DNA of 64,000 nucleotides from NCBI GenBank assembly GCA_965205345.1, contig CBDBGQ010000053.1, forward strand, positions 129,842 to 193,841. Direction: 5' to 3'. The notes under the pieces are model-generated. The model had not been told where the DNA came from. It did no database searches and saw only the letters and a program-made list of their open reading frames with translations. Within the stretch, counting starts at the first letter, position 1. Each line of letters opens with the position of its first letter. Made by a program: the position numbers and the translations under genes. Shown one piece after another: positions 45,244 to 48,390 of this stretch. Origin of the DNA: Acidobacteriota bacterium (GTDB lineage: Bacteria; Acidobacteriota; UBA6911; RPQK01; CBDAPI01).

Positions 45244-46875
45244 CTCTTTGGCTCCTTCACCATCTCAGGGGGAGGGATGAACTGTCGCTTGTTGAGGAGG
45301 GGCGGATATCCCGGTTCCTCCGGGAACCGCTGCGGCATGTTGTCGTCCAGGGTCTCGAACATGGAACGGCTGGGCAGAATCACGTTATTCCTAGTGACGT
45401 AGTCTTCCCAGCGCTCCACCAGCGCGACTACTTTTTCGGGCTGCCTGGAGGCCAGGTCCTGACGCTCCCCGGGGTCGGAGGTCAAGTCGAAGAGCTCCCA
45501 GTCGCCAGTGCCGTAGGGCTTCCACTGCCAGCGAAGCTTCCAGTTCCCCTGGCGCACTGCTCGGTTCCCGAACAGCTCCCAGGCCAGATAGTCCTCGTCA
45601 GTGCGGACGGAATGGATCCCCCCGGCGAGCATCGGGATCCAGGACTTGCCCAACAGAGGTGGCAGCTGCCGTCCTTCTCGCGTCTCGGGATACTCGACTC
45701 CTGCGACCTCCAGCAGTGTGGGCATGATGTCGGCTACATGCATGATGGAGTGATGGATGCTCCCACTGGAACGTCCAACTGCCGGGCCGCTCACGATCAG
45801 GGCGTTCCGAATCCCACCCTCGGCGAGCCAAGCTTTGTACTGGCTGAAAGGCGTCATCGATACCTGAGCCCACATGGGACCGTAGCCGACGTATGAACCC
45901 GGTTCACCCCAGGCATTCGGATGTGTCTTGGCCCACTTGATGGCCGCGAAGAGAGAGTTCAGCGTGCCTGGCGTGCCCGCGATCATCTTGAAGAGGTCCG
46001 TGCCCTCGGCGCCGTTGTCACCGAAAACGATGAAAATGGTGTTTTCGTACTCGCCGATCTCCTTCAGGTAGTCGACGAGGCGCCCGACGTGGTAGTCCAT
46101 GTTCTCTACCATTCCCGCGTAAAGCTCCATCTTCATCCCGAGTTGCGCTCGAGGTGCCGGCGCGAGAAGCGTGGAGTCAGAAACGAACCACAGGCGGTCG
46201 GCGAGCTTTGTGCCCTTGGTAAAGAGACCGAGCTCAACCTGCCGCTGCAGCCGCTGGCGGCGCACCGCATCCCAGCCCTTGTCATACTCCCTGACGTGGC
46301 GTCGGCGCCACTCCTTCGGCAAGTGGTAGGGGTCGTGCGGCGCCTGGTGCGCGAGGTAAGCGAAGAAAGGCTTGCCGTCGGCCCGGTCCGCCTCAATGAA
46401 CTCGATCATCTTGTCTGTGTAGGTCTTGGTCGCGTAATAGCCTTTGGGGAGCTCGCTGAGATAGAGACCGTCCTCGGTAAAGACCGATTGAGGCGAGCGG
46501 GCGGTCAGGTTCGTCATGTCCCAGTAGCTTCCGCCACCGTCGAGGAGGCTGAAGTCACGCTCGAAGCCCCGGGCCCGCGGAATCTTATCGGGCGCTTTGC
46601 CCATGTGCCACTTGCCGGTCATGTAGGTGTGGTAGCCGGCTTCCTTGAGAAGCTGCGGCAAGGTTGCGATGCTGTCATTCAGGTAGCCTTCGTAGCCCGG
46701 AACCCCCATCTGGTTCGGGGCCGTCCACTCGTCCATGTTGCCGAGGCCGTTGAGGTGCGTATCGACACCCGAGAGCAGCATCGAACGGGTGGGTGAACAG
46801 CTTGCGTGAGTGTAAAACTGGGTAAAGCGCACGCCCTGCTGAGCCAGGGAATCGATGTGTGGAGTCTGTATTTCG
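45240..46875 (-). pseudogene. Arylsulfatase (sulfatase family), main body, separated from its N-terminus by an IS256 insertion
   Basis: Has the C-x-P-x-R sulfatase signature SCSPTRSMLLSG and the GKWHMG block. The frame reads back to ...[18 protein letters not shown] immediately after the IS, with no start codon or signal peptide on this side. Confidence 0.8.
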
Positions 46876-48210
46876 GGTTAAGCAACCGTTTTTCTGTAAT
46901 TTCCTCTAGGGCCTGTAGGGAAGAATTGCTCCACTTGTTTTTTCCAGCCGGCCAGGTTCAGGTATTGCCGGCCGGTTAACCACTCCTCGTGTATCTCTGC
47001 AAGCACAGCCGAGATGAGCCGCAGCGCCGATGCTTCGTGGGGAAAGATTCCCACCACCCGGGTTCGTCTCCGGATCTCCCGGTGCAGTCTCTCCAGTCCG
47101 TTGATGGTTCGGATCCTTCGCCACCAGCTCCTCGGAAAATCAAACACTGTCAGCCCTTCATCCAGGTTGTCTTCCAGCCAGCTCACGAACTCCGGTGCAA
47201 TCTTTTCGAACTTCTTGACGACTTTACCCTTGAGCTCCTCGGCATCCTCTCGAGACGGGGCATCGAAAATGTCCCGCATGGCCTGGGCGATGCGGGGCTT
47301 GTCCTCTTTGCGGCGAGCATATTGTTGGGCGTTTTTGCTCAGGTGAAACTGACAACGGTTCCAGGGCACCGACGGATAAACTGCCCGCCTGGCCGCCTTC
47401 AGTCCTTCGTGATCGTCACTGACCAACAGCTCGACCTCTCTCAGTCCACGCTTGTGCAGATCTCCCAGAAACCCTCGCCAATGCACCTCCGCTTCGCTGA
47501 TCTTGGCGCTCAGACCCAACACCTCTCGCGTCCCGAAACGATTGACTCCTATGGCTTTCAGGATGGCCACGTCCTGCACCCTGCCGCCTCTTCGAACCTT
47601 CTCGTAGTGGGCAGATACACGATCGGATACTCTCCCAGCTCCCGGCTTCGAAACTCTTCCAGCTCTTCGTCCAGCATCCCGGCCACTCTCGAGACCTGGG
47701 TGGCCGAGATCTCCAACCCACACAGCTGCTCCGTGATCTCGAGTGACTTTCCTCGTCGAGACGCCCATCACATACATCTCGGCAATGGCCAGCTTCAGGG
47801 CCTTCTCCGAACGGCAACCCCTCTCCAGCGACTTGGGATAAAACCTCAACCCACGCACCTGTGGAATCTCCAAGTGCAGCTCTCCCACTCGAGTCTGAAT
47901 CCGCTTGCCTTTGAATCCGTTTCGATAGCCTCGCCGACTGGCTGTTCTCTCGTACGCTTCCGCTCCCAGAAACTCGCTTCTTTCCAACTGCATCGCCACG
48001 TTGAACAACTTCTCCAGGATTCCTCGAAAGGCTTCTGTTCCTTCCTCGATCAACTCCGCCAGGATCTCCCGTGGTACTCTCTTTTCCAGATCTGGGTTCA
48101 TTTGATTCTCCTTGCCAGATTCTCGTTTCTGTTTTTGGAGAATCCTGTCCCAGACCTCTGTCTTTCCGACCCAAGGCCTGACCAGAAATTACAGAAAAAA
48201 AGTTACACTA
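46876..48210 (-). mobile_element. IS256-family insertion sequence (~1.33 kb) with ~26-bp imperfect terminal inverted repeats and a ~10-bp target-site duplication
   Basis: TIRs are aaccgtttttctgtaatttcc (left) and agaaattacagaaaaaaagtt (right, reverse complement). The direct repeat ctgtatttcg appears at 46866-46875 and 48211-48220. Confidence 0.8.
46878..48101 (-). pseudogene. IS256-family (mutator-type) transposase, carrying two compensating frameshifts
   Basis: N- and C-terminal thirds match IS256 transposases (AEMYVMGVSTRKV..., YEKVRRGGRVQDVAILKAIGVN...). About 45 residues in the middle are out of frame. The correct reading (ITEQLCGLEISATQVSRVAGMLDEELEEFRSRELGEYPIVYL) lies in another frame between about 47610 and 47745. 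Confidence 0.7.
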
Positions 48211-48390
48211 CTGTATTTCGCTCCCGAACGAACCCAGGTCTGAGTAGCCCATGTCGTCAGCCAGGATGATCACGATGTTGGGTCGGTGGGCGGCCGACAA
48301 GGCCGAGATCGATATGGCCAACACCAGAACCAGGGGGCCAAAGAACCATTGATCGCTTCGTGCCATTACCACTCCTTTACGATAGGTCAT
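48208..48390 (-). pseudogene. N-terminal fragment of the IS-disrupted arylsulfatase (signal peptide plus PNIVIILADDMGYSDLGSFGSEIQ)
   Basis: It ends ...GSEIQ then a stop created at the IS junction. The sulfatase body on the other side of the IS resumes with PEIQTPH..., and the shared EIQ is encoded by the target-site duplication. Confidence 0.8.

What the first reader, a model, noticed from the sequence alone, without database searches (positions are those of the whole stretch)
46866..48220. IS256-family element inserted into an arylsulfatase gene, with visible target-site duplication; the transposase is itself frameshifted
The sulfatase N-terminus (signal peptide plus PNIVIILADDMGYSDLGSFGSEIQ, 48208-48390) and its body ([32 protein letters not shown]..., 45240-46875) are separated by 1.33 kb. 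That insert is bounded by ~26-bp imperfect TIRs and a direct repeat ctgtatttcg (46866-46875 and 48211-48220), which encodes the duplicated EIQ. The transposase reads as IS256-family, but ~45 central residues are out of frame: the correct reading lies in another frame between about 47610 and 47745. That indicates two indels. So this is a decayed IS in a decayed target gene.
Basis: seen in the sequence. Interest (0 to 1): 0.6.

Follow-up and report, generated by a model that had tools for sequence, protein, structure and literature searches.

The report
IS256-family insertion splitting a sulfatase gene
A common 1.34-kb jumping gene of the IS256 family has recently landed inside an arylsulfatase gene of a soil Acidobacteriota strain and knocked it out; this copy's own transposase gene carries two small indels that would kill it if they are real, and the whole is an ordinary, well-understood event.

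Summary
A 1,337-bp IS256-family insertion sequence (window 46876-48212, minus strand) splits an arylsulfatase gene. Removing it plus one duplicated target copy restores a continuous ORF. That ORF is 588/593 identical, without gaps, to an uninterrupted orthologue. Two assemblies of the same population, 99.8% identical in DNA, carry the empty site.

Fifty-three full-length copies from Acidobacteriota MAGs fix the ends as AGTAGTG...GCTTAACC. They show the target duplication is 8 bp (GTATTTCG), not 10: the extra "CT" is the IS terminus.

The transposase ORF stays open at 407 aa. Compared with intact 408-aa copies it has a 1-nt insertion at 47742 and a 4-nt deletion between 47613 and 47614. These scramble residues 121-163 and remove the first catalytic Asp (D164). 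Both indels are unique among the 53 copies and are seen only in the window's own source contig.

Whether they are real or long-read consensus errors cannot be settled without reads; I put it at about 50/50. Sibling assemblies each carry private frameshifts. The window's private indels cluster within 5 kb around the IS, while its private SNPs do not.

The sulfatase is not otherwise decayed. This is an ordinary, recent, strain-specific insertion by an unnamed IS256-family member that has expanded in this lineage. Interest is low.

The parts
46876..48212 (-). Complete IS256-family insertion sequence. It is 1,337 bp here and 1,340 bp in intact copies. In transposase orientation it reads 5'-AGTAGTGTAAC...GGTTGCTTAACC-3'.
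   Evidence: It is 98.9% identical end to end with the intact copy L001 2890-4229. The ends are fixed by 53 full-length copies, 40 of them flanked by an exact 8-bp duplication.
48185..48212 (-). Left terminal inverted repeat (transposase-proximal end), AGTAGTGTAACTTTTTTTCTGTAATTTC
   Evidence: 21/28 positions match the other end, including a perfect 15-bp core
46876..46903 (-). Right terminal inverted repeat. On the + strand it reads GGTTAAGCAACCGTTTTTCTGTAATTTC. The transposase stop codon TAA (46878-46880) lies inside it.
46868..46875 (.). Target-site duplication, copy 1 (GTATTTCG)
   Evidence: 8-bp direct repeat abutting the IS ends. The sequence is present once in the empty sites of L002 and L070.
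48213..48220 (.). Target-site duplication, copy 2 (GTATTTCG)
46878..48101 (-). Transposase ORF. It is open for 407 aa, but residues 121-163 are read out of frame and the first DDE aspartate (D164 of the intact 408-aa protein) is missing.
   Evidence: Pfam and NCBIfam hits are split into 2 stretches. The alignment to ISCth4 TnpA (PDB 6xg8) is, and its DDE residues are given in PMC7780238.
47742..47742 (-). 1-nt insertion (A on the + strand, T in the transposase sense: GTCAC[T]CGAG). It shifts the frame after T120.
   Evidence: Absent from all 52 other full-length copies
47613..47614 (-). Site of a 4-nt deletion (TGGA in the transposase sense: TATC[TGGA]TGCC; 2-nt microhomology). It restores the frame but removes the GAT codon of D164.
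   Evidence: Absent from all 52 other full-length copies
48213..48390 (-). Arylsulfatase 5' fragment. It holds the signal peptide and the N-terminal metal-binding motif ILADDMGY. It ends at ...GSEIQ and then meets a TAG inside the IS end. Gene callers start the gene at 48366 (MARSD...).
45240..46875 (-). Arylsulfatase 3' fragment ([11 protein letters not shown]... with the CSPTR formylglycine motif, through to the stop codon)
   Evidence: Pfam PF00884 1.5e-57 on the rejoined protein. It is 588/593 identical to P0121.

Best explanation
A 1,340-bp IS256-family insertion sequence is abundant in a lineage of Acidobacteriota (at least 45 pattern hits in one MAG). I infer from its family that it moved by copy-out/paste-in. 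It inserted into codon 52/53 of a secreted arylsulfatase gene (593-aa numbering) and duplicated 8 bp of target (GTATTTCG).

The insertion separates the signal peptide and the first metal-binding motif from the catalytic CSPTR (formylglycine) body. The enzyme is therefore null in this strain, and the overlapping downstream Phenol_MetA_deg-family gene probably suffers polarity.

The event is recent and strain-specific. Two other assemblies of the same population, 99.8% identical in the flanks, have the unoccupied site. The split gene carries no other lesion.

As assembled, this IS copy encodes a dead transposase. A +1 and a -4 indel lie 128 nt apart. They keep the ORF open but scramble residues 121-163, which include the first strand of the RNase H-like fold, and they delete catalytic D164. 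Both ends are intact. If the indels are real, the copy is non-autonomous but still mobilisable by transposase from sister copies.

Shown here: identity, boundaries, TSD, empty site, and the position and uniqueness of the indels. Inferred: the transposition pathway, the polarity, and the loss of activity. Unresolved: whether the two indels exist in the DNA or only in the consensus.
For: Family:
- PF00872 1.6e-84.
- NF033543 at 276 bits for the window copy and 345 bits for the intact relative, against a cutoff of 150.
- Match to the ISCth4 transposase structure 6xg8, E=5e-49.

Boundaries and TSD:
- 99% identity to intact L001 from 48212 to 46876.
- Of 53 full-length copies, 40 have an exact 8-bp TSD and 5 more have 8 plus one chance base.

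Empty site and recency:
- L002 aligns to window 51007-48211 and 46875-39119, with a single copy of the repeat, at 99.6-99.8% identity.
- L070 shows the same.
- The rejoined protein is 588/593 identical to P0121, with no gaps.
- Window-private SNPs in the sulfatase region are not elevated: 4 in 2.7 kb, against 24 in 19.5 kb overall.

Indels:
- Exact positions.
- Unique among 53 copies. The nearest copy, L051, differs by only these two indels plus one SNP.
- D164/D230/E338 and C251/H254 align with ISCth4 D175/D241/E348 and C262/H265.

Abundance: 66 or more exact hits, all in Acidobacteriota MAGs, with the scan truncated. The 90% protein cluster has 655 members.
Against: Nothing argues against the insertion itself.

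Against taking the indels at face value:
- The 407-aa product (P0008) is on record from only one contig, the window's own 357,655-bp source.
- Related assemblies are low-coverage long-read contigs (5x-14x in their names). Each carries its own private frameshifting indels in conserved genes.
- The window's private indels (44714, 47613/4, 47742, 48655-7, possibly 49691-3) all fall within 5 kb around the IS. None falls in the preceding 18 kb. Private SNPs, by contrast, are evenly spread.
Confidence: 0.9

Rival explanations
1. The IS insertion is real, but the two transposase indels are consensus errors of a low-coverage long-read metagenome assembly at a structurally polymorphic, repeated locus. 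On this reading the copy is an intact, autonomous IS encoding the normal 408-aa transposase.
For: - Sibling assemblies of the same population each have private indels that break otherwise conserved genes. L002/L072 have them at 44803, 28805 and 49468. L070 has them at 37962 and 39505, plus a nine-event cluster at 34872-35024. L071 has them at 37332, 39727 and 39921.
- The Phenol_MetA_deg gene is broken at different places in the window and in L002, but is intact in L070 and L003.
- Window-private indels cluster at 44.7-49.7 kb, with none in 26.8-44.7 kb. Private SNP density is flat.
- The locus differs structurally between strains: IS present or absent, IS upstream in L070, region replaced in L071. 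Such differences lower the effective coverage.
- The indel variant is on record only from the window's own contig and was not found in JGI metagenomes.
Against: - Neither indel lies in a homopolymer, and one is a 4-nt deletion flanked by microhomology. That is more typical of replication slippage than of basecalling error.
- Mis-mapped reads from the many intact sister copies would tend to erase such indels, not create them.
- About 10% of other copies in other MAGs also carry indels, so defective copies of this IS are common.
Confidence: 0.45
2. The indels are real and arose in place after the insertion, by neutral decay of one redundant IS copy. The second indel restored the reading frame by chance.
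For: - An individual IS copy is not under purifying selection.
- The closest relative, L051, differs by only 1 SNP plus the two indels, so the lesions are young.
- Other copies carry private indels: L022, L028, L030, L040.
- The -4 has a 2-nt microhomology signature.
Against: - There are two indels and only one substitution within 1.3 kb. The flanking sulfatase acquired no indel, and the insertion is young enough that the flanks are 99.8% identical to empty-site strains. That is a high indel load for so little time.
- The neighbouring private frameshifts (44714, 48655) would need the same explanation.
Confidence: 0.3
3. The copy was already defective when it transposed. A non-autonomous double-indel derivative with intact ends was mobilised in trans by transposase from one of the many intact sister copies.
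For: - Both terminal repeats are intact and the TSD is perfect.
- The genome family holds dozens of intact donor copies.
- There is a precedent in this IS. The same -A frameshift at reference position 825 occurs in L042 and L035, at different insertion sites in two different MAGs.
Against: - No second copy with either indel exists among the 52 other full-length copies or in JGI metagenomes.
- The genome scan was truncated, and the other copies in the source genome could not be examined.
Confidence: 0.15

Closest known systems
IS256 family insertion sequences (prototype IS256 of Staphylococcus/Enterococcus; ISfinder family IS256; Pfam PF00872 Transposase_mut; NCBIfam NF033543)
   Same: - A single transposase ORF filling a roughly 1.3-kb element.
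- Imperfect terminal inverted repeats of about 28 bp.
- An 8-bp target duplication.
- A DDE triad with a CxxH motif in the insertion domain.
- No marked target preference.
- Multi-copy expansion within genomes.
- PMC3942029 gives 18-39-bp IRs and 8- or 9-bp DRs for these elements.
   Different: - It is an unnamed member from uncultured Acidobacteriota.
- The left tip is 5'-AG rather than mirroring the right tip (GG), so only one end finishes in the terminal C described as conserved.
- This particular copy lacks D164 as assembled.
ISCth4 of Clostridium thermocellum (TnpA structures 6xg8/6xgw/6xgx; Kosek et al. 2020, PMC7780238)
   Same: This is the closest relative with a solved structure (E=5e-49 over residues 21-377). 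The catalytic residues and the CxxH motif align column for column. It provides the mechanistic model of copy-out/paste-in through an asymmetric dimer.
   Different: The relationship is distant. ISCth4 is 1,503 bp against 1,340 bp here. The transposition chemistry of the present IS has not been tested.
IS-interrupted genes and frameshifted IS copies in IS-expanded genomes (a general phenomenon)
   Same: - Strain-specific gene knock-out by an IS.
- Many polymorphic IS sites within one population. L002 has a different IS in the kinase gene, and L070 has this IS upstream of the sulfatase.
- A minority of copies have broken transposase genes.
   Different: Nothing of substance differs. The compensating +1/-4 pair that keeps the ORF open is a curiosity rather than a new category.

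Membership tests
IS256 family (insertion sequence) | Transposase matches the curated IS256 / Mutator-family models above threshold | tested here: met
   PF00872 at 284.5 bits (cutoff 21). NF033543 at 276.3 bits for the window copy and 344.9 bits for the intact relative P0001 (cutoff 150).
IS256 family (insertion sequence) | DDE catalytic triad with a C/DxxH motif in an alpha-helical insertion domain | tested here: inconclusive
   Intact copies have D164, D230, E338 and C251/H254, aligned with ISCth4 D175, D241, E348 and C262/H265. In the window copy D164 is deleted as assembled, while D230, E338 and CxxH are present. The element family meets the feature; this copy does not, if the indels are real.
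IS256 family (insertion sequence) | Element of about 1.2-1.5 kb with one long ORF and terminal inverted repeats of about 18-40 bp | tested here: met
   The element is 1,337 bp here and 1,340 bp intact. The ORF spans 46878-48101. The TIR is 21/28 identical, with a 15-bp perfect core. The IR range is taken from PMC3942029.
IS256 family (insertion sequence) | 8- or 9-bp target-site duplication | tested here: met
   The window has the 8-bp GTATTTCG. Of 53 copies, 40 have exactly 8 bp and 5 more have 8 bp plus a chance match. The empty site is present in L002 and L070.
IS256 family (insertion sequence) | Copy-out/paste-in transposition through a circular intermediate | not testable with these tools
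   Inferred from family membership only (PMC7780238). No circle junction can be seen in an assembled window.
Type I (formylglycine-dependent) sulfatase, Pfam PF00884 | Sulfatase domain with the C/S-x-P-x-R formylglycine motif and N-terminal metal-binding aspartates | tested here: met
   PF00884 at 1.5e-57, covering the full profile 1-301 on the rejoined protein. CSPTR and ILADDMGY are visible in the sequence. NCBIfam arylsulfatase and choline-sulfatase equivalogs fall below their cutoffs, so the substrate is unknown.

The most novel reading that the evidence does not exclude
The +1/-4 pair is real and not a coincidence. On this reading the copy makes a full-length, in-frame, catalytically dead transposase. 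It keeps the extreme N-terminus and the whole C-terminal two-thirds but lacks D164. Such a protein could poison the asymmetric transposase dimer or occupy IS ends, acting as a trans-dominant brake on an IS family that has expanded to dozens of copies in this lineage.
Probability: 0.04. Interest if true: 0.4.

Novelty: new member of a known kind. Interest (0 to 1): 0.15.

Why it matters
It matters little beyond annotation.

- It defines a previously unnamed, highly active IS256-family element of Acidobacteriota: 1,340 bp with an 8-bp TSD and exact ends.
- It shows that the sulfatase in this strain is a fresh IS knock-out rather than an old pseudogene.
- It illustrates that strains of one soil population differ mainly by IS insertions.
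- It is a caution for annotators. The 407-aa 'transposase' in the databases (P0008) and the 513-aa 'sulfatase' (P0255) are products of this lesion. Small indels in these long-read MAGs should not be read as biology without read support.

Tried and rejected
- Exact look-ups to find the source contig all failed. I tried the window's transposase, two neighbouring ORFs and the 513-aa sulfatase fragment. The source is known only as a 357,655-bp NCBI/ENA contig.
- P0014 could not be located either.
- Scans of JGI metagenomes for each indel junction found nothing. This is a weak test, because I do not know whether the intact IS occurs in that collection.
- The single genome-contig scan used a pattern that accepts both the intact and the deleted form. 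The source genome's other copies were therefore not seen.
- I considered that the 513-aa sulfatases in more distant genomes (P0127) marked the same IS insertion. They do not: L073 has only a small lesion and no IS at that spot.
- I considered a 10-bp or 7-bp TSD. Both are rejected by the 53-copy comparison.
- I considered programmed frameshifting. It is rejected because the 52 other copies encode one uninterrupted 408-aa frame, and the indels are absent from them.
- I looked for a target-site motif and found none.
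Full report
**1. What is in the sequence**

All the relevant features lie on the minus strand.
- A 60-codon ORF (48390-48208) encodes a signal peptide and the sulfatase N-terminal motif ...NIVIILADDMGYSDLGSFGSEIQ, then stops.
- From 46875 downward the same strand reads [28 protein letters not shown]... through to a stop at 45240.
- Between them lies a 407-codon ORF (48101-46878). It matches Pfam Transposase_mut PF00872 (1.6e-84) in two separate stretches. 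It also matches NCBIfam NF033543 'IS256 family transposase' (276 bits, cutoff 150).
- Imperfect terminal inverted repeats surround a perfect 15-bp core. That core occurs nowhere else in the window.

**2. Rejoining test and empty site**

Deleting the insert and one repeat copy gives a continuous 601-codon ORF, or 593 aa from the start codon that gene callers use. It has a full-length sulfatase domain (PF00884, 1.5e-57).

A protein search found an uninterrupted 593-aa orthologue, P0121, that is 588/593 identical with no gap. Its contig (L002, ENA ERZ25067065 contig_80) is 99.6-99.8% identical in DNA to both flanks of the insert. It carries the 10-mer once, so it is the unoccupied site. A second assembly from another sample (L070, ERZ25766727) shows the same empty site.

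The insertion is therefore real, precise, recent and strain-specific. Apart from the insertion, the sulfatase carries no lesion. 'Decayed target gene' is too strong.

**3. Exact boundaries**

The repaired transposase is 99% identical to a 408-aa protein, P0001, whose 90%-identity cluster has 655 members. Its locus L001 aligns with the window from 48212 to 46876 at 99% identity.

All are from Acidobacteriota MAGs, and about 48 hits come from a single MAG, CBDCLS01.

From these loci I extracted 53 full-length copies. With the element defined as AGTAGTG...GCTTAACC (1,340 bp), 40 copies are flanked by an exact 8-bp direct repeat. Five more have 8 bp plus one chance base.

In the window, then:
- the IS is 46876-48212;
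- the duplication is GTATTTCG (46868-46875 and 48213-48220);
- the 'CT' at 48211-48212 is the IS tip, which happens to match the two target bases preceding the duplication.

The tips are 21/28 identical. The 44 duplications I tabulated show no target motif. These values fit the 18-39-bp IRs and 8- or 9-bp DRs reported for prokaryotic Mutator-like elements, including IS256 (PMC3942029).

**4. The transposase lesions**

Relative to L001 and to all 52 other full-length copies, the window copy has two differences:
- one extra base at 47742 (GTCAC[T]CGAG in the coding sense);
- four bases missing between 47613 and 47614 (TATC[TGGA]TGCC).

The net change is -3. The ORF stays open, but residues 121-163 (43 aa) replace residues 121-164 of the intact protein.

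The closest solved structure is the ISCth4 transposase (6xg8, E=5e-49). Its paper names D175, D241, E348 and C262/H265 as the active-site residues (PMC7780238). In the alignment these correspond to D164, D230, E338 and C251/H254 of the intact protein. The 4-nt deletion removes the D164 codon. As assembled, this copy cannot make an active transposase, although both ends are intact.

The nearest copy (L051, MAG CBDBID01) differs from the window copy by these two indels and one SNP only.

**5. Are the indels real?**

This cannot be decided here.

The 407-aa product is in the protein collection as P0008. It is on record from a single 357,655-bp NCBI/ENA contig that also yields the 513-aa sulfatase fragment P0255. 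That contig is the window's own source. No independent assembly carries the indels, and neither junction occurs in JGI metagenomes.

*Evidence for artefact.*
- The related contigs are low-coverage long-read assemblies; their names give 5x, 9x and 13.9x.
- Each carries private indels that break conserved genes:

| Assembly | Private indels, in window coordinates |
|---|---|
| L002/L072 | 28805, 44803, 49468 |
| L070 | 37962, 39505, plus nine events within 150 bp at 34872-35024 |
| L071 | 37332, 39727, 39921 |

- The window itself has no private indel from 26816 to 44713. It then has five within 5 kb:
  - 44714 (-1) breaks the Phenol_MetA_deg-family gene, which is intact in L070 and L003;
  - the two IS indels;
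  - 48655-7 (+2) is private by comparison with L002 and L003;
  - 49691-3 (+3) could be compared with L002 only, so its direction is unknown.
- The window's private substitutions are evenly spread at about 1.2 per kb.
- An indel-only cluster at a locus that differs structurally between co-occurring strains looks like locally poor consensus.

*Evidence for real lesions.*
- Neither IS indel is in a homopolymer.
- The -4 has a slippage-like microhomology.
- Stray reads from intact sister copies would erase such differences rather than create them.
- About one copy in ten in other MAGs also carries indels. These include a -A at reference position 825 that L042 and L035 share at different sites in different MAGs.

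I rate real versus artefact at roughly even odds. If the indels are real, decay in place is more likely than mobilisation of an already defective copy, because no second copy with the pair was found. The source genome's other copies could not be searched.

**6. Mechanism and consequences**

By family membership, and not tested here, the element moves by copy-out/paste-in through a circular intermediate.

The insertion falls after the signal peptide and the first metal-binding aspartates. It lies upstream of the CSPTR formylglycine motif, so no functional secreted enzyme can be made. The downstream gene overlaps the sulfatase stop codon in intact relatives (L002 and L003 gene tables). Polarity on that gene is therefore likely.

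**7. Verdict**

This is a textbook IS256-family insertion, with a textbook 8-bp duplication, in a lineage where this IS has expanded. The element appears to be unnamed, which makes it a new member of a known kind. Nothing about its anatomy is unusual.

Four corrections apply:
- the duplication is 8 bp, not 10;
- the lesion is a compensating +1/-4 pair;
- the target gene is otherwise intact;
- the reality of the indels is unproven.

Interest is low.

Noticed in passing
window 44264-45243 (-), indel at 44714: The Phenol_MetA_deg-family outer-membrane gene just downstream of the sulfatase is split by a window-private 1-nt deletion (Pfam profile 9-118 and 129-233 on two ORFs). The same gene is broken at a different place (44803) in L002/L072. 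It is intact in L070 (326 aa) and L003 (327 aa).
   Followed up: yes
window 48655-48657, 49468, 49691-49693: There are further small indel differences from the near-identical L002. A window-private +2 shifts the C-terminus of the small gene 48519-49073. A G7 (window) versus G8 (L002) run leaves the window's DUF6515 gene (48883-50253) continuous but splits it in L002. There is also a +AAT in the window.
   Followed up: partly
L070 1-86 (ERZ25766727 ctg361370_9x_l), equivalent to just beyond window 48400: In another sample a copy of the same IS, encoding an intact 408-aa transposase, ends 47 nt before similarity to the window resumes just upstream of the sulfatase start. The sulfatase itself is intact there. 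The same gene neighbourhood has thus been hit independently, and the upstream region is rearranged.
   Followed up: partly
window 39119-39122; L002 17906-19642: L002/L072 carries a DDE_Tnp_1_4-type IS (471-aa transposase) inside the Ser/Thr-kinase/PD40 gene, which is intact in the window (37300-40098, 932 aa). The 4-bp alignment overlap suggests a 4-bp TSD. Strains of this population differ mainly by IS insertions.
   Followed up: partly
L042 4321-5660 and L035 357-1665: Two copies of the IS share the same 1-nt deletion (-A in GCGGCC[A]GGCGGG, reference position 825; the A lies in a CCAGG). They sit at different insertion sites in two different MAGs (CBDBID01, CBDFLV01). Either a frameshifted copy has spread, or this is a recurrent consensus error at that motif.
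   Followed up: partly
Nearly all are 1,339-bp copies differing from each other by 0-1 nt, with clean 8-bp TSDs. That indicates a very recent burst of transposition.
   Followed up: partly
window 53255-54148 (-), 56311-57669 (+), 63272-64000: Other mobile-element genes lie in the window. There is a weak IS1/IS240-like DDE protein and a DUF772/DDE_Tnp_1 transposase. The window's end is 99% identical to the DDE_Tnp_1_4 IS present twice in L071. The 51-64 kb part of the window is IS-rich.
   Followed up: no
window 60958-61631 (-); 54237-55382 (+): There is a PIN-domain / ribbon-helix-helix toxin-antitoxin pair, and an HTH_3 plus Peptidase_M78 (IrrE-like) regulator.
   Followed up: no
L070 12204-12330 (equivalent to window 34872-35024): Nine indel events within about 150 bp split the Peptidase_S58 gene into three pieces in the 9x assembly L070. 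The window, L071 and L072 have it intact. This looks like a patch of poor consensus and is a precedent for clustered indel errors in these assemblies.
   Followed up: partly
window 47738-47743 and 48652-48657: Two of the window-private insertions each create a palindromic hexamer: CTCGAG at the IS +1 site and CTGCAG at the +2 site. This may be coincidence. I did not test for a link to methylation-related basecalling.
   Followed up: no
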